Assembly (NCBI GenBank): GCA_030390025.1
Contig: CM059432.1
Location: 59,708,001-59,772,000 of the forward strand
DNA length: 64,000 nt
Reading direction: 5' to 3'
DNA from: Squalus acanthias
Lineage: Eukaryota
Below, one piece after another: positions 10,606 through 63,853 of this stretch (position 1 is its first letter; every line of letters begins with the position of its first letter). Made by a program: the position numbers and the translations under genes. The notes below the pieces were generated by a model. The model saw only the letters and a list, made by a program, of their open reading frames with translations. It made no database searches and was not told where the DNA came from.

Positions 10606-10698
10606 TCACATATCTTTGAGGGTTCTTCCAGTGCAACAGGTTTGAACTGATGATTCCTTAATAACAAATGCATCAGCATTTGGCAAAAGATTGGGATT
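10606..10698 (-). CDS. RAB10-like GTPase, probable last coding exon 6 (NPNLLPNADAFVIKESSVQTCCTGRTLKDM*)
   Basis: Strong acceptor CTTTTATTTTTTTCTAG; phase 0 matches the exon 5 donor; contains Cys-Cys; TGA at 10608-10606; followed by ~700 bp of non-repetitive AT-rich sequence with ATTAAA at 9934-9929. Confidence 0.62.
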   Translation of the reverse strand, partial: NPNLLPNADAFVIKESSVQTCCTGRTLKDM

Positions 10699-27249: not shown

Positions 27250-28462
27250 TGTGGTCGCATGCAGCTGCATTGGGCACATCCGGCCCCCGCAACGCGTGGT
27301 TCCCCATCCTCCTCCTCATCCTCCTCCTCATGCTCCTCCTCATCCTCCTCCTCGTCCTCTTCTTCCGAGGAGTGTGTGTGCTGAGCCACTTGTTCATCTG
27401 GCAGCACTAAGCCGCACTGCTGTGCGATGTTGTGCATGGCACAGCAGACCACAATGATTCTGGACACCCTGGCTGGTGCATACTGCAGGGCTCCACCAGA
27501 TCTGTCCATCGGAAGCGCATTTTGAGCAAGCCGATGGTTTGCTTGATGATGCTTCTGGTGGATAAGTGACTCAGATTGTAGTGCTCCTCAGCCTCGTTTG
27601 TTGGCCTCCTCATCGCTGTCATAAGCCACTTTTTCAGGGGATAGCCCTTGTCGCCAAGTAACCATCCGGAAAGTTGGGTTGGCGGATGGAAGAGCTGAGG
27701 CACAGTAGATTGGCGCAGGATGAAGGAGTCATGGCAACTGCCAGGTTACTTTGCGCAAACATGCATGATGATCTTCCTGTGGTTACACACCAGCTGGACG
27801 TTCAGGGAGTGGAATCCCTTGCAGTTAACAAATACAGCTGGGTTGTGATAGGGGGCCCTAATGGCTACATGTGTGCAGTCTATAATGCCCTGCACCATTG
27901 GCAAGCCTGCCATATTGGCAAAGCCAACTGCACGCGCGGTCACACTTGGGCCATCCGTGGAGAAGTGGGTATAATTGTGCGCCTTTGCAAAGAGGGCATT
28001 GGTGACCTGCGTGATGCAGGTGTGTGTGGCCGACTGGGATATGCTGCTGATGTCTGCAGCTGATCCCTGGAAGGAGCCCAAAGCAAAGAAGTTGAGTGCG
28101 GTGGTGACTTTGACAGCCACTGGTAAGGAGTGTCCACACGCTCCCCTGGGCTCCAGGTATTGGTGCAGCATTGCGCAGATGTCAGCGACTACGTCTCTCG
28201 AAAGTCTCAGCCTCCTTTGGCACTGCTGCTCAGTCATGCTGAGGAAGCTGATCCTCTGCCCGTAAGCCCTGTGTTCGGGGTATCTACTGTGGCGAGTTGC
28301 AGCCCTGCGCTGACGCCCTCTGCCCTGTGCAGCATCAGGTGGGTGTGGAGGAGGTTGATGTTCCTAGTGCTGGAGCTGCTGTTGTGGCTGGTTGTGGTGC
28401 TGCTGCGGCTGCTCTTCCTCCGAATCTGACGACCAGGATGAGAGGATATAAATGGTTCCCAT
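27250..28462 (-). pseudogene. Harbinger DDE transposase (HARBI1-like), with stops and frameshifts
   Basis: [52 protein letters not shown], acidic tail. Confidence 0.92.
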
Positions 28463-29660
28463 ACCGTTGCTATAGATTTCAGTTGAGGCAAGAAGCTTGC
28501 AAGCGCACAGTCAAAGTGGCCTGAGATTATTCCAATCAGGTCACACTGCAGATGGCTGTCAGCTTGACCAGTCACAAGGTCAGTAGAGTTGCAAAATCTT
28601 ATCCCAAGCTTCCAACAACAAAGTTGTGGCATTTGAATGTCAGCCATGTTGCAGGAGCACTTTTAAGCGGCTGCAGCAATTGACAACAAATCATGTCCTC
28701 GAGAAACCCGACTCATTGCAGCTGGCGTGTTTCTCAGACGACGGGAAACAGGAGCCAAAAGCACCAAAATCGGAATCGCATTTTAAAATAGGATTAGCAA
28801 GTCACTTAACAGGCTATTAACTGCCTTAACTGCCTGTCCTGCCGTTTGGTGTCGGGTCAGTTCGGGAGCGGCTGACCCGACACTTACGAAATTAGCGTGG
28901 GGGCAGGTTGGAGGCGGGTTTGCAGCCAACCGGCAATTTTTCCGATTTTCGCTGCCGACCCGCCTCAAACCTGCACTCTGAAGTCCATTAAAATGAAGCC
29001 TCTGGAGTGCACCTGGTGCCTGTGGCAACACACTCCGGCAATGAGGCAACAACGTCAACATTTCTTGGGTTGTAATTCCGGCGGTTATGCTGGGATTGTG
29101 CCTGAAGGTGTCTTCCAGCGCTAACCCCATCAGACTTTGTAGGGTCAGTGGGAGGACATCTCCTTTACTTGAGAGAGACAGGCACAAGCACCATTTTACG
29201 AGCATCTCCAGTGTCTCACTGTCCGTGTTGACCAGAAAGGGGTGTTACCTAGGCCCCCACCCCACAATCCCAGCCATACACCCATCGGCCCCTAAGCAAG
29301 GGGGACGATCCACAATTTTTTTTTAAATCCTTGTGTTCGGGGGTCAAATCTCCTTGTCTGGTATGATCAGACTGGTGGAGCTCACATCAGCCCTTGTGGA
29401 AGCGATGCGCCTCTGCTTACTCAATGTACAGGCCTCCACTGATATGGTGGGTCCCACTGGAGCCTGAGGAGAGGGAACTCCCGACTCTACCCCCAGCCGT
29501 CATTTGTCTTGTAAGGGACTTACAAGTCAACCAGGAAATTCCCAGAAATAGCAGAGACCTGGCGCATGCCCTGAGGAATTTTGGGCCCAACATCTATAGG
29601 AGAAAGGGAATGAAAAAAAAGTGACCACTTGGGCGTTTTACCAAGTTATATAAATCACAC

Positions 29661-29762
29661 CTTTCTTACTATTTCTTCTCCTAGGGCTGCAAATGCTTTC
29701 TCGATGTTCATGTCCTCTTTTGCACTGGTCTCAAAGAATTGCATCCCATGTTCCTGGGCAAG
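29661..29762 (-). CDS. RAB10-like GTPase exon 5 ([34 protein letters not shown])
   Basis: G5 motif ETSAK; acceptor TTTTAAG, donor GTGTGA; 102 bp, phase 0-0. Confidence 0.95.
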
Positions 29763-29942: not shown

Positions 29943-30032
29943 CCTTTTCCCATTGTCCCATGAAACCTGCCGTGCCACTAGCATGTCACATTTATTACCA
30001 ATCAATATTCGGCCAACATCGTTCCCTGCATG
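29943..30032 (-). CDS. RAB10-like GTPase exon 4 (HAGNDVGRILIGNKCDMLVARQVSWDNGKR)
   Basis: G4 motif NKCD; acceptor TTTCAG, donor GTACGT; 90 bp. Confidence 0.95.
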
Positions 30033-30770
30033 CTGAAATTAAAATTATATCCATCTTTATACATTCACTAAACATTGCATGCATTTGCTGTACATCTTAA
30101 CAGTGTGCATCATTAGTTTGAAAATCAGAACCATTTTCTCACCGTTACTGCTTTAATAGCGTAACCATTTCATGAGGCTAAACACTCTTTCCTTCCCATA
30201 CTGGATTAATTATGCAGATTTAGAATGCTACCTGCTGGATATGCTCATATGACACTGAAATAAACTGTTTAGTGTGCTTACACAGTGCTCTTAATCTTCT
30301 GTCTATTAAAATGAATGGAAACAAAATTGTGGGTTGTGTGCCTGAGATTTCCTGAGATGTGCTCTTTCTGAGTGCAGCTCCCACCTGGGATCACTAGATT
30401 GTGCAATTATCTCTCAAGTATCCGTGCGCATTAAGAAATCATCGACTCTTAGATGGTGCAGTTGCACATTACACCGAAGCACTTACATACTGTATTATGA
30501 AGTGATGGGACAGATGATCAGTTCTTTCATTGAATTCAGTCCTTTGTCATGGCTACATTGCTGTACAGAGGTGCGGAATGTCCCCACCCATAGGATTTAG
30601 GCTGCCGTCACACCTTTGAGCAAACATCTCAAAAGCTGCAGGAGCAACAGCCTGGGGACAAGCTGCTCTCCATCATAGATAGAAGCAGTGTATCCTAGAA
30701 AGGTAGGAACAACAGAGAAAAATGTAAAAGTAAAAGAAAAAGGGGACAGTAACATACTAAAAAAACTCAC

Positions 30771-30909
30771 CTCATCAGTGTCTTTAATCCAATATGTGAT
30801 ATTAATGAAGGTCTTTAAATTTGTAATGTCATAGACAAGCATAAGACCATTTGACCCACGAAAATAATGAGTTGTAAGGGCGTGGAAACGTTCCTGGCCA
30901 GCTGTATCC
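30771..30909 (-). CDS. RAB10-like GTPase exon 3 ([47 protein letters not shown])
   Basis: G3 motif DTAGQE; acceptor TTGACAG, donor GTGAGT; 139 bp. Confidence 0.96.
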
Positions 30910-31902
30910 CTGTCAATAGATAAGCCAGAAGTTGCATCATCCACTTTTTACACAAATCCAGAGGGGAAAGAGAAGATATTTGGCCCTGATTTTAACTCTC
31001 CCCGCCTGGCGGAAACCAGATGGGGGGGTGGGGGGGGGGAGTTAAAATGGAATGGGGGACTTACCCACTCCTTTCCCTCCCCGATCTGACCGACTACAAT
31101 TTTAAATTTCAGGCAGCAAGGACACCCACCCAAGCTGGCGGGGTCCCCTTTAAATATGCAAATCAGGTTCCGATCACTTCAGCAGGGCACAATCTGCTAC
31201 TATAACCAGAGGCCTGAGCGGGGCAGCTTGATGGCTCCCCCGCCTAGCCAAAACTGCCAGGAGAACATAAGTACATAAGAAATAGGAGGTCATACGGCCC
31301 CTTGAGCCTGCTCCACCATTCAATAAGATCATGGCTAATCTACTACCTCAACTCCACTTTCCTGACCAATCCCCATATCCCTGGGAGCTGGATTGAGGGC
31401 CAGAAGAGGCCCAGTAAGGTGAATTTTTTTTAAAGTTTCCTTGTGGGCCATTTTGAACAGAAATACATAAACCGCCAGAGTCAGAGGAATGAAGTGCATG
31501 CTGGGCTGATATAGGGCAGGAGAAAATTACAGAGATAGGGTAGGGAAAAGTCACGGAGGGATTTAAAGATGAGGATATTAAATTTAATGTGTTGATGGAT
31601 GGGGAGCCAATGGAGATCAGCGAGGACAGAAGTGATGAATGAGGAGTACATAGTACAGGACAGGATGTGTGCAGCAGAGTCTTGCATAATTTGTACTTTA
31701 TTGAGGATTGAAAAATTGCGGTCAGACTCTCCGCTATCTCCATTCTGACTCATTTCAACAGTCTAGGGTGCATGCAATCATGGGCCAGTGACTTATTCAC
31801 CTTGAGTTCTGCTAATCTTTTTCAGCACCAATTCCTTTTCTAGTTATTTCTAACAATTATTCCACATCCTCCTCCAATATACCTACATTCTCACTTGAAC
31901 CA

Positions 31903-32688
31903 TCATTTGGGGAGGGCTAACAAGGCAAGGGAATACACTATAAATGGTAGGACACTGAGAAGTGCAGAAGATCAGAGGGACCTTGGAGTGCATGTCCACA
32001 GATCCCTGAAGGTAGCAGGACAGGTATATAAGGTGGTTAAGAAGGCATACGGGATACTTGCCTTTATTAGCTGAGGCATAGAATATAAGAGCAGGGAGGT
32101 TATGCTTGAACTGTATAAAACACTAGTTAGGCCACAGCTAGAATACTGCATGCAGTTCTGGTCACCACATTACAGGAAGGATGTGATTGCACTAGAGGGG
32201 GTGCAGAGGAGATTTACGAGGATGTTGCCTGGGCTGGGGAATTTTAGCTATGAGGAAAGATTGGATAGGCTGGGGTTGTTTTCTTTGGAACAGAGGAGGC
32301 TGAGGGGAGACCTAATTGAGGTGTATAAAATTATGAGGGGCCTAGATAGAGTGGATAGGAAACACCTATTTCCCTTGGCAGAAGGGTCAATAACCAGGGG
32401 GCATAGATTTAAAGTAATTGGTCGGAGGTTTAGAGGGGATTTGAGGAGAAACATTTTCACCCAGAGGGTGGTGGGGGTCTGGAACTCACTGCCTGAAAGG
32501 GTGGTAGAGGCAGAGACCCTCATCACATTTAAAAAGTACTTGGATATGCACTTGAAGTGCCATAACCTACAAGGCTACGGACCAAGTGTTGGAAAGTGGG
32601 ATTAGGGTGGATAGCTCTTTGTCGGCCGGCACGGACAAGATGGGCCGAATGGCCTCCTTCTGTGCTGTAAATTTCTATGATTCTATGA
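31903..32688 (+). mobile_element. CR1 LINE 3' fragment
   Basis: ORF 32102-32605 LYKTLVRPQLEYC...GYGPSVGKWD; (TTCTATGA)n tail. Confidence 0.92.
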
Positions 32689-33546: not shown

Positions 33547-33610
33547 CATATTTGCAGCTTAATTGTGCTGTTCTCTTTTATCTTGATAGTTTTTACCCTG
33601 AAATCGATTC
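33547..33610 (-). CDS. RAB10-like GTPase exon 2 (gIDFRVKTIKIKENSTIKLQIw)
   Basis: RabF1 IGIDF and RabF2 KLQIW; acceptor TTTTCTTTTAG, donor GTACGA; 64 bp, phase 1-2 joins exons 1 and 3 in frame; too short for the ORF track. Confidence 0.94.
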
Positions 33611-62507: not shown

Positions 62508-63720
62508 CATGGCCCTTTAAATATCCCAGTTGAAAACGGATGACGTCAGCAGACCTGCACCATTTAATGGGGCCGGGTAATGCGCAGGTTGGGTTGAATA
62601 GGTCCTATTGATGTAAAGTCATTTTGTGCAGCAGGATGGAGCCAGCAACGGGGTCGCGATCCGCCATGGCCACCACCCGCACCGGACCCTCCCAAGTAGG
62701 GAAAATTCTGGCCATAGTGTGTGCTATGCTGCTGTTCTGCAAAGTATACCTCCTGAAAGCATACACAACACATCCAGATTTTAGAATTTGGAAGAGCTAG
62801 ACAACCAACCTTGTGGTCACACTACATTCTTCCTTGTAAGAATCCATCAGAATGCAGTATGCATATATTTTCTGTCAGCAGTGTTGGTTCAGGGTACACC
62901 TTACAAGATTTATGGAGACAATGGAAACTACATCATTGGCACATTGAAAGTGTACCCTATAGCTTTATTTCCATGAAAGCATGTGTGAAAACAGTGAAAG
63001 GTTGTCTCCATGTTTTGTATGCTGCCTCTGAGGATGCTCCAGGACAAGTTCTGTTGGTACCATAATGTTATGTACCAATAGTAACCATCTGTTGAAATTA
63101 GGATACACTTATCTTAGCACTCCTGATACTTTAACATTTCTTGTGCATTTGCTTCTGCAGACCTGGGAGACTGCACTCATTATCTTATTAACCTCCATTC
63201 AGGCAGCTTGCACCTTTGCTTTCACATGAGCTTTAAAGATGGACACCCTTCTTCGCCACAACTTTTAAAGTAGGGCCTCCAAGATATCATCAAAAGGCAT
63301 TATTTGACATTGTACACTTCTAAAAACTTTTAACAAACCAATTACTAAATATTCCAGTACAAACACTACATCTGGCACATCAAAAAATTCAGTGATGAGC
63401 AGCAGCACTTTAAGAGTCGCTGTCATGATGGATTTCCCACCCCAACCAATCATGTCCCTCCCTGCACTTGTGCATGCACAGAGTCTATTAAAATTAGTAG
63501 GAAGGGCTGGCCTTGCAAAATGTAGCGAGGCCAGCCGTCTGTAATCCTGGCCCAAGCCTGCCTGTGCTACTCTTATTTTTGGAAGAGAGAAAACTGATCT
63601 TGTGCTTCTTTTCCTCAATTAACTTAGTTTTGATGTCTTACATGAAGTTAACTCTTGGTGTAGGAAGGTTGGAGAAACTCATGAAAATCAGCTCTTTTAG
63701 ATTTGTCTGACAATACTTGC

Positions 63721-63853
63721 CTATTGTGGGTAAGAATGAAGCATGGAAATTGTCCTCAGTTAATCTCTTTAATATGGCAGTTTTACCTACATTGGAGTCT
63801 CCCACCATAATTATTTTTGAAAGAATATCTCCAGATAGATTCACTTCTTCCAT
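63721..63853 (-). CDS. RAB10-like GTPase first coding exon (MEEVNLSGDILSKIIMVGDSNVGKTAILKRLTEDNFHASFLPTIg)
   Basis: P-loop GDSNVGKT, switch-I PTIG; ATG 63853 in context AACATGG; donor AG|GCAAGT; upstream acceptor TTTCAG at 63897-63892. Confidence 0.93.

What the first reader, a model, noticed from the sequence alone, without database searches (positions are those of the whole stretch)
30879..30881. Natural 'T73A': the LRRK2 phosphosite of RAB10 is alanine
Seen: switch II reads [14 protein letters not shown] (codon GCC). Known: RAB10 reads [11 protein letters not shown]73-ITT; T73 (T72 in RAB8A) is the LRRK2 target that blocks GDI binding and recruits RILPL1/2, and T73A is the standard phospho-dead mutant. 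Inference: this paralogue would escape LRRK2/PPM1H control, a naturally evolved kinase-insensitive RAB10.
Basis: partly seen in the sequence, partly recalled or inferred. Interest (0 to 1): 0.75.

Follow-up and report, generated by a model that had tools for sequence, protein, structure and literature searches.

The report
Shark Rab10 duplicate lost LRRK2 site
Sharks keep a normal RAB10 membrane-traffic switch, but their second, fast-evolving Rab10-like gene has alanine where the Parkinson's-disease kinase LRRK2 tags RAB10, so this copy likely lies outside LRRK2 control, probably through relaxed constraint rather than a selected escape.

Summary
In detail: 30881-30879 (minus strand) is GCC, Ala76, at the RAB10 T73 position of an intact six-exon, 206-aa Rab. 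But the gene is not RAB10. Canonical RAB10 lies on another contig, is 97.6% identical to human and keeps Thr. The window gene (57% identical to it) is an old duplicate: same five intron positions, a mirrored four-gene block, and its own clade inside the Rab10 subfamily, with members in chimaera, gar, bichir, coelacanth, amphibians, reptiles and birds. Ala is in 12 of 13 sharks (one has Ser); chimaera and 57 of 59 bony orthologues keep Thr, so the site was lost once in the shark lineage. It is the only shark-only change among 63 deeply conserved columns. Phosphorylation there is impossible, but that the paralogue was ever an LRRK2 substrate is untested, Ala here is ordinary in other Rabs, and human T73A is reported non-functional, not cleanly phospho-dead. 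Sharks also moved the CC lipid motif eight residues from the end; two related species carry a G3-box Gly-to-Asp change. An earlier unreviewed scan note on this gene's first exon (same genome) reached the same duplicate reading. Verdict: real, modest interest.

The parts
63721..63853 (-). Coding exon 1 (133 nt): start codon, P-loop GDSNVGKT, switch I; followed by a non-canonical GC donor at 63720-63719
33547..33610 (-). Coding exon 2 (64 nt): IGIDF (RabF1) to KLQIW (RabF2)
   Evidence: spliced junction to exon 3 seen in run X16
30771..30909 (-). Coding exon 3 (139 nt): G3 box, switch II, alpha-3
   Evidence: same size and phases as exon 3 of canonical RAB10
30879..30881 (-). GCC = Ala76, the position of RAB10 T73 / RAB8A T72
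   Evidence: unchanged in runs laid
30870..30875 (-). Thr78-Thr79, equal to RAB10 T75-T76 (present in human RAB10 too)
30897..30899 (-). Gly70 of the G3 box; intact here, Asp in two related organisms (X10, X11)
29943..30032 (-). Coding exon 4 (90 nt): G4 box GNKCD
29661..29762 (-). Coding exon 5 (102 nt): G5 box ETSAK; read-through into the intron gives Val-stop, the ending used by several database models
   Evidence: single copy in the genome
10606..10698 (-). Coding exon 6 (93 nt incl. stop): hypervariable tail
10606..10638 (-). Cys-Cys followed by eight more residues before the stop (CC+8); the third codon after CC is AGA, one base from TGA

Best explanation
The codon is a real alanine in an intact shark gene that is an ancient duplicate of RAB10, not RAB10 itself, and it likely replaced an ancestral LRRK2-type phosphorylation site once in the shark lineage under relaxed constraint, leaving a likely still-working GTP/GDP switch that cannot be phosphorylated at that position. 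Shown: sequence, gene structure, paralogy, distribution of Thr/Ser/Ala, an intact canonical RAB10 and an LRRK2 gene in the same genome. Inferred: the paralogue arose in an early vertebrate genome duplication, diverged fast into a specialised role (changed N-terminus, P-loop flank, switch-II flank), and in sharks no longer depended on switch-II phosphorylation, so ACN to GCC was tolerated. In consequence it would not be locked off GDI/GEF by LRRK2, would not recruit RILPL1/2 or JIP3/4 through phospho-Thr and would give PPM1H nothing to remove, while canonical RAB10 would keep those jobs.
For: ORF of 206 aa over six exons with all G boxes, the hydrophobic triad (F, W, Y) and the catalytic Gln kept; predicted small-GTPase topology, mean pLDDT 69, pTM 0.71, for the catshark orthologue. 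Five intron positions identical to canonical RAB10 on C9. Mirrored block: C9 dystrobrevin-type EF-hand(-) 62.19, ASXH(-) 62.52, RAB10(+) 63.09-63.16, CABIT(+) 63.24-63.33 Mb; C8 EF-hand(+) 61.73, ASXH(+) 60.76, this gene(-) 59.72-59.77, CABIT(-) 59.65-59.58 Mb. Tree: 12-row clade (SH-aLRT 99) inside the Rab10 subfamily (99), apart from Rab8/13; grouping with vertebrate RAB10 not rejected, p-AU 0.68. State counts: Ala 12 of 13 sharks, Thr in chimaera, 57 of 59 bony orthologues and 18 of 18 canonical RAB10. Relaxed but present constraint: 89-96% identity among sharks against 97.6% shark-to-human for RAB10; exon-3 differences in four related organisms are 5 synonymous and 4 non-synonymous; Ala itself changed to Ser in S. 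canicula. Spliced exon 2-3 junction in a related organism.
Against: No biochemistry: LRRK2 phosphorylation of any Thr-bearing orthologue is untested. T73A is the only shark-only change among 63 columns conserved in both paralogues, which is more specific than general drift would need. Human RAB10 T73A is cytosolic and was not prenylated in vitro (PMC6219843), so 'still working' is not assured; the CC+8 tail and Gly70Asp in X10/X11 point the same way. No RNA holder was listed for this species, so expression here is unknown. The tree is a quick search on 170 columns; grouping with Rab8/13 was not formally rejected (p-AU 0.065).
Confidence: 0.5

Rival explanations
1. The paralogue was never (or long ago ceased to be) an LRRK2 substrate; its Thr is kept in other vertebrates for escort-protein, GEF or other-kinase contacts, so the shark Ala says nothing about LRRK2.
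For: Only 14 of about 50 Rabs with the residue scored as LRRK2 substrates and substrate status cannot be read from sequence (PMC5695910, passages). All orthologues examined changed flanking and docking residues: +1 Ile to Leu/Phe in 48 of 59 bony and all sharks, +2 Thr to Ser in 51 of 59 bony, RAB10 R105 (RAB8A R104) to Lys in 47 of 59 bony and all sharks; in RAB8A changes at -3..+3 and R104A lower phosphorylation and T72S abolishes it (PMC12599248, parts 1-3 read). Bichirs have Ser.
Against: ERFH, the Arg at +7 and Thr itself are kept in most orthologues; R-to-K is conservative; LRRK2 substrates cluster in this branch of the Rab tree.
Confidence: 0.2
2. The shark copy is a weakened or decaying Rab: the Ala and the displaced cysteines impair prenylation and membrane targeting, and the gene is on its way out in some lineages.
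For: Human RAB10 T73A is cytosolic and non-functional. CC+8 or longer tail in 6 of 6 shark sequences that include exon 6, against terminal CCxx or CxxCx in bony orthologues; listed RabGGTase motifs end at CCXXX (PMC9141697). Gly70Asp in X10 and X11. Database models disagree at both ends. No ray or skate entry among listed hits.
Against: Intact ORF and splice sites; 89-96% identity across distant shark orders; synonymous changes at least as many as non-synonymous; RabGGTase tolerated up to 5 added residues (Wu et al. as cited in PMC3504004); T73A RAB10 bound GDI better than T73E (PMC4769169); the GC donor can explain the bad 5' models.
Confidence: 0.15
3. One reading: sharks were selected to keep a kinase-insensitive Rab10 that stays active when LRRK2 shuts down canonical RAB10, for example in cilia or phagocytes.
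For: Only shark-only change at a deeply conserved column; nearly fixed across six shark orders; LRRK2 and canonical RAB10 T73 both present.
Against: 57% identity to RAB10 with altered effector-facing N-terminus makes a RAB10 back-up role doubtful; Ala changed to Ser in one catshark; one substitution cannot show selection; signs of relaxed constraint elsewhere in the shark gene.
Confidence: 0.13
4. Assembly error or pseudogene fragment.
For: None found beyond the lack of raw reads.
Against: Same residue in 11 of 12 named shark species and in independent runs; complete gene.
Confidence: 0.01

Closest known systems
RAB10 (human, PDB 5LPN/5SZJ; canonical shark copy at G000:C9:63.09-63.16 Mb)
   Same: Best solved-structure sequence match (E 2e-62 against 7e-57 for RAB8A); ERFH switch-II signature; identical intron positions; same neighbouring gene families.
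   Different: 57% identity in the G domain; Ala for T73; one-residue insertion in the interswitch; Cys24 to Ala, Arg105 to Lys, different N-terminus; CC+8 tail.
'ras-related protein Rab-10-like' of non-mammalian jawed vertebrates (e.g. chicken XP_419183, Xenopus LOC495396, Latimeria, Amia, Callorhinchus A0A4W3H3Y1)
   Same: One clade with the window protein; automatic database label only.
   Different: They keep Thr (Ser in bichirs) and, in bony vertebrates, a terminal cysteine motif usually preceded by basic residues; sharks have Ala and an extended tail.
Engineered RAB10 T73A / RAB8A T72A
   Same: Same substitution at the same position.
   Different: Made in the human background, where RAB10 T73A is reported cytosolic and non-functional (PMC6219843); the shark protein carries it with about 70 other G-domain differences.
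Rabs with natural Ala at this position (RAB21-type and RAB14-type exons in this genome; names recalled)
   Same: Ala at the switch-II phospho position (L004, L008, L016); about 30% of Rabs lack Ser/Thr here (PMC12599248).
   Different: Those are other subfamilies; within the Rab10 subfamily of vertebrates the loss was seen only in this shark paralogue.

Membership tests
Rab small GTPase | G1-G5 nucleotide motifs and Ras-family domain | tested here: met
   All boxes present; PF00071 E 2e-56 for the Heterodontus orthologue; fold topology.
Rab small GTPase | RabF motifs and hydrophobic triad | tested here: met
   IGIDF, KLQIW, triad F/W/Y kept; RabF3/F4 diverged.
Rab small GTPase | C-terminal di-cysteine prenylation motif (CC to CCXXX) | tested here: inconclusive
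   CC present but followed by eight residues, beyond the listed motifs.
Rab small GTPase | Binds and hydrolyses GTP; cycles through REP/GDI | not testable with these tools
   Needs biochemistry.
Rab10 subfamily | Groups with RAB10 to the exclusion of RAB8/RAB13 | tested here: met
   SH-aLRT 99 in a quick tree; the alternative has p-AU 0.065, not formally rejected.
Rab10 subfamily | RAB10 exon-intron structure | tested here: met
   Exons 133/64/139/90/102/93 against 127/61/139/90/102 plus tail, same phases.
Canonical RAB10 (orthologue of human RAB10) | Near-identity and orthology to human RAB10 | tested here: not met
   57.1% identity; the C9 gene (97.6%) is the orthologue.
Whole-genome-duplication paralogue (ohnologue) of RAB10 | Lies in a collinear paralogous block | tested here: met
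   Four gene families in the same order and relative orientation on C8 and C9; a third ASXH locus on C11.
Whole-genome-duplication paralogue (ohnologue) of RAB10 | Duplication dated between invertebrate chordates and the jawed-vertebrate radiation | tested here: inconclusive
   Present in cartilaginous and bony lineages, none seen in cyclostome or invertebrate hits, but the base of the Rab10 clade is unresolved.
LRRK2-substrate Rabs | Thr (or Ser) at the switch-II acceptor | tested here: not met
   Ala76.
LRRK2-substrate Rabs | Recognition residues around the site and in alpha-3 (RAB8A R79, R104) | tested here: inconclusive
   R79 equivalent kept (Gln in 3 of 13 sharks); R104 equivalent is Lys; +1 Leu (PMC12599248).
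LRRK2-substrate Rabs | MLi-2-sensitive phosphorylation and phospho-dependent RILPL binding | not testable with these tools
   Needs assays.

The most novel reading that the evidence does not exclude
Sharks evolved a Rab10 paralogue that left both the LRRK2/PPM1H circuit and the standard prenyl-GDI cycle together (Thr to Ala plus loss of the old stop codon that moved the cysteines inward), yet is kept by selection. Its background would hold the compensations that make Ala at this site functional, giving the clean non-phosphorylatable Rab10-type protein that engineered T73A is not, and the overlooked Thr-bearing paralogue of birds, reptiles and frogs would be an unrecognised LRRK2 substrate.
Probability: 0.15. 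Interest if true: 0.6.

Novelty: new variant of a known kind. Interest (0 to 1): 0.33.

Why it matters
It is a dated natural loss of the best-studied LRRK2 acceptor position inside the Rab10 subfamily, with a built-in control series (chimaera Thr, bichir and one catshark Ser, other sharks Ala). That series could separate what the Thr does for phosphorylation from what it does for escort-protein handling, a known problem with T73A mutants. It does not show that sharks lack LRRK2-RAB10 signalling, and the paralogue appears not to be among the mammalian or teleost entries seen, which limits direct medical relevance.

Tried and rejected
Sequencing or assembly error: rejected (orthologues, contigs). 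'Sharks have a phospho-dead RAB10': rejected, canonical RAB10 keeps ACC Thr. RAB21 identity (shares ERFHAL): rejected by the rest of the protein, intron pattern, synteny and solved-structure ranking; RAB21 was not in the trees. Retrocopy or second copy in this genome: none found. ESM Atlas for the C8 CABIT exon gave only THEMIS-type CABIT clusters at 0.89 or less, so the name GAREM rests on recall. COR-A search did not find LRRK2 (its best locus looks like LRRK1 by recall); the ARM_LRRK2 family did. The 50%-cluster search gave Rab8/13/1 outgroups but no new named orthologue. The careful tree did not finish in time; quick trees are reported; three rows were dropped from the second tree for length or motif reasons (P0228, P0491, P0492). 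An 11-codon stretch at 60441-60409 resembling the first exon of the Pristiophorus model lacks an equivalent donor here and was treated as a model artefact. A search for the effect of G3 Gly-to-Asp was read as a listing only. No complex prediction was run: it cannot score one Thr/Ala change.

Full report
Observation. Window 30879-30881 reads GGC on the plus strand, GCC on the minus strand, within an exon translating [21 protein letters not shown]. The exon (30909-30771) is the third of six coding exons spread over 53 kb: 63853-63721, 33610-33547, 30909-30771, 30032-29943, 29762-29661, 10698-10606. Joined, they give an open 206-aa protein with all five G boxes; the residue is Ala76 and aligns with human RAB10 T73. 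Intron 1 has a GC donor; the others are GT-AG. Eight public runs from eight coded organisms were laid on 30740-30960; all are assembled contigs. Five span the codon well and show no difference, one covers it with short contigs and lists none, two do not cover it.

What the gene is. A search of the own genome with the exon found one perfect match and, next best at 65%, an exon on contig C9 reading ERFHTITTSYYRG. The C9 gene, joined from fetched pieces, is 97.6% identical to human RAB10 over 168 G-domain columns and keeps ACC Thr; the window protein is 57.1% identical to it. Both genes have the same five intron positions and phases. Their surroundings mirror each other: on C9 a dystrobrevin-type EF-hand gene (minus, 62.19 Mb), an ASXH gene (minus, 62.52), RAB10 (plus, 63.09-63.16) and a CABIT gene (plus, 63.24-63.33); on C8 the same four families at 61.73 (plus), 60.76 (plus), 59.72-59.77 (minus) and 59.65-59.58 Mb (minus). 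Kelch-repeat exons lie 25-55 kb upstream on the same strand (3 of 4 pieces scanned matched Kelch_1). The names DTNB/ASXL2/GAREM2 and DTNA/ASXL3/KLHL14/GAREM1 (human 2p23 and 18q12) are recalled, not given by a tool. In a quick maximum-likelihood tree of 33 G domains the window protein falls in a 12-row clade (SH-aLRT 99) with chimaera, bowfin, bichir, coelacanth, frog, axolotl, chicken, turtle and anole 'Rab-10-like' proteins, nested in the Rab10 subfamily (99) and apart from Rab8/Rab13 (a 51-row tree gave the same clade). Forcing it to group with vertebrate RAB10 gave a slightly better likelihood (p-AU 0.68); forcing it with Rab8/13 was worse but not rejected (p-AU 0.065). The simplest reading is a whole-genome-duplication paralogue of RAB10. 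No ray, skate, teleost or mammal member appeared among listed hits; these lists are truncated, so loss is not shown.

History of the site. Among 12 named shark species 11 have Ala and Scyliorhinus canicula has Ser; Callorhinchus milii has Thr. In the alignment (13 sharks including the window, one second Pristiophorus isoform left out; 59 bony orthologues chosen one per species from the larger lists; 18 canonical RAB10), the counts are Ala 12 and Ser 1 in sharks, Thr 57 and Ser 2 (bichirs) in bony orthologues, Thr 18 of 18 in RAB10. So Thr is ancestral and was lost once after the chimaera split; rays are unsampled. Of 168 columns, 63 keep the human residue in at least 90% of both bony orthologues and RAB10; sharks differ at 7, six of them shared with chimaera, leaving T73 as the only shark-only change. 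This was a test chosen after seeing the site, and one change on that branch is not by itself unusual.

Other shark features. All 6 shark sequences that include the last exon end in CC plus eight or more residues, whereas the bony orthologues that include it end in CCxx or CxxCx, mostly after basic residues; the third codon after CC is AGA, one base from a stop, which suggests stop loss (inference). Shark G domains are 89-96% identical to the window protein, indicating continued but looser constraint than on RAB10. Exon-3 differences in four related organisms were 5 synonymous and 4 non-synonymous, one being Gly70 to Asp in the G3 box in X10 and X11. Run X16 holds a contig joining exon 3 exactly to exon 2 and another joining inside exon 3 to inside exon 4: a transcript or a processed copy, either way a sign that the gene has been transcribed and spliced in a relative. 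An AlphaFold model of the catshark orthologue has ordinary small-GTPase topology, with low confidence in the switches and tail. Eleven exon matches to ARM_LRRK2 lie in order on C10; RILPL1/2 and PPM1H were not searched.

How it likely works. Alanine cannot take a phosphate, and in human RAB10 the T73A change removes the LRRK2-dependent band shift although T75 and T76 remain (PMC5003698, one results section read). RILPL2 reads phospho-T72 through R132 (PMC7139218, passages). So the shark protein very likely lacks this phospho-switch. Three cautions come from papers. First, only 14 of about 50 Rabs with the residue scored as substrates and sequence does not predict it (PMC5695910, passages). Second, RAB8A residues at -3 to +3, R79 and R104 matter and T72S is not phosphorylated (PMC12599248, first three of six parts read); this paralogue differs at +1, often +2, and at the R104 equivalent in most lineages, so even the Thr-bearing forms may be poor substrates. 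Third, RAB10 T73A was cytosolic, not prenylated in vitro and failed to rescue knockouts (PMC6219843, passages), though it bound GDI better than T73E (PMC4769169, passages). About 30% of Rabs lack Ser/Thr here (PMC12599248), and this shark's own RAB21- and RAB14-type exons have Ala (names recalled), so Ala is compatible with function in other backgrounds. Listed prenylation motifs extend to CCXXX (PMC9141697, passages) and up to five added residues were tolerated (as cited in PMC3504004, passages; PMC5902227, passages); eight is outside what I saw tested. I therefore favour loss of an ancestral site under relaxed constraint in a still-working specialised Rab (0.5) over never-a-substrate (0.2), decay (0.15) and selected escape (0.13).

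Novelty. Databases already label these proteins 'Rab-10-like'. Four paper searches aimed at the paralogue or at loss of this site (also 23) listed no study of it; the only mention found was a newt iris transcript table naming Xenopus LOC495396 (PMC3628982, one passage). A 2019 survey of the chordate Rab family (Coppola and colleagues; recalled, not seen) may cover the paralogue, and no supplements were read. An unreviewed scan note on exon 1 of this same gene had the same duplicate reading; I had reached it before that look-up and took the KLHL14 lead from it. Verdict: real and lineage-specific, but a single substitution in a divergent paralogue with the canonical pathway intact; interest 0.33.

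Noticed in passing
P0205-P0238 (frog orthologues): Frog members of this paralogue end in C-x-x-C-x rather than CC, CXC or CAAX, an unusual cysteine spacing for a Rab.
   Followed up: no
window 30898 in runs X10 and X11: G3-box Gly70 to Asp in two related organisms of one study; would likely disturb the GTP switch.
   Followed up: partly
window 30910/33575 and 30812/30008 in run X16: Spliced exon 2-3 junction and an internal exon 3-4 join in a run guessed to be DNA: possible processed retrocopy in that organism.
   Followed up: partly
window 63719-63720: GC-AG first intron; several database shark models lack or shorten exon 1, which this donor could explain.
   Followed up: partly
window 29655-29660: Read-through of exon 5 into the intron gives Val-stop; four shark database models end this way with no cysteine. 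Real isoform or model artefact unknown.
   Followed up: no
window 27746-28363 (-) and 32075-32605 (+): Intronic ORFs that look by eye like a Harbinger-type transposase and a LINE reverse-transcriptase tail.
   Followed up: no
G000:C8:14.55-14.60 Mb (L003, L031, L032): A RAB12-type exon with the same 139-nt layout lies next to an apparently open THEMIS-type CABIT gene (names recalled).
   Followed up: no
P0009, P0015, P0027: Some invertebrate Rab10-like proteins also have Ala at this position, so the change has happened elsewhere.
   Followed up: no
G000:C17:23309742 and C11:105116711 (L004, L008): Two RAB21-type exons in this genome, i.e. likely two paralogues.
   Followed up: no
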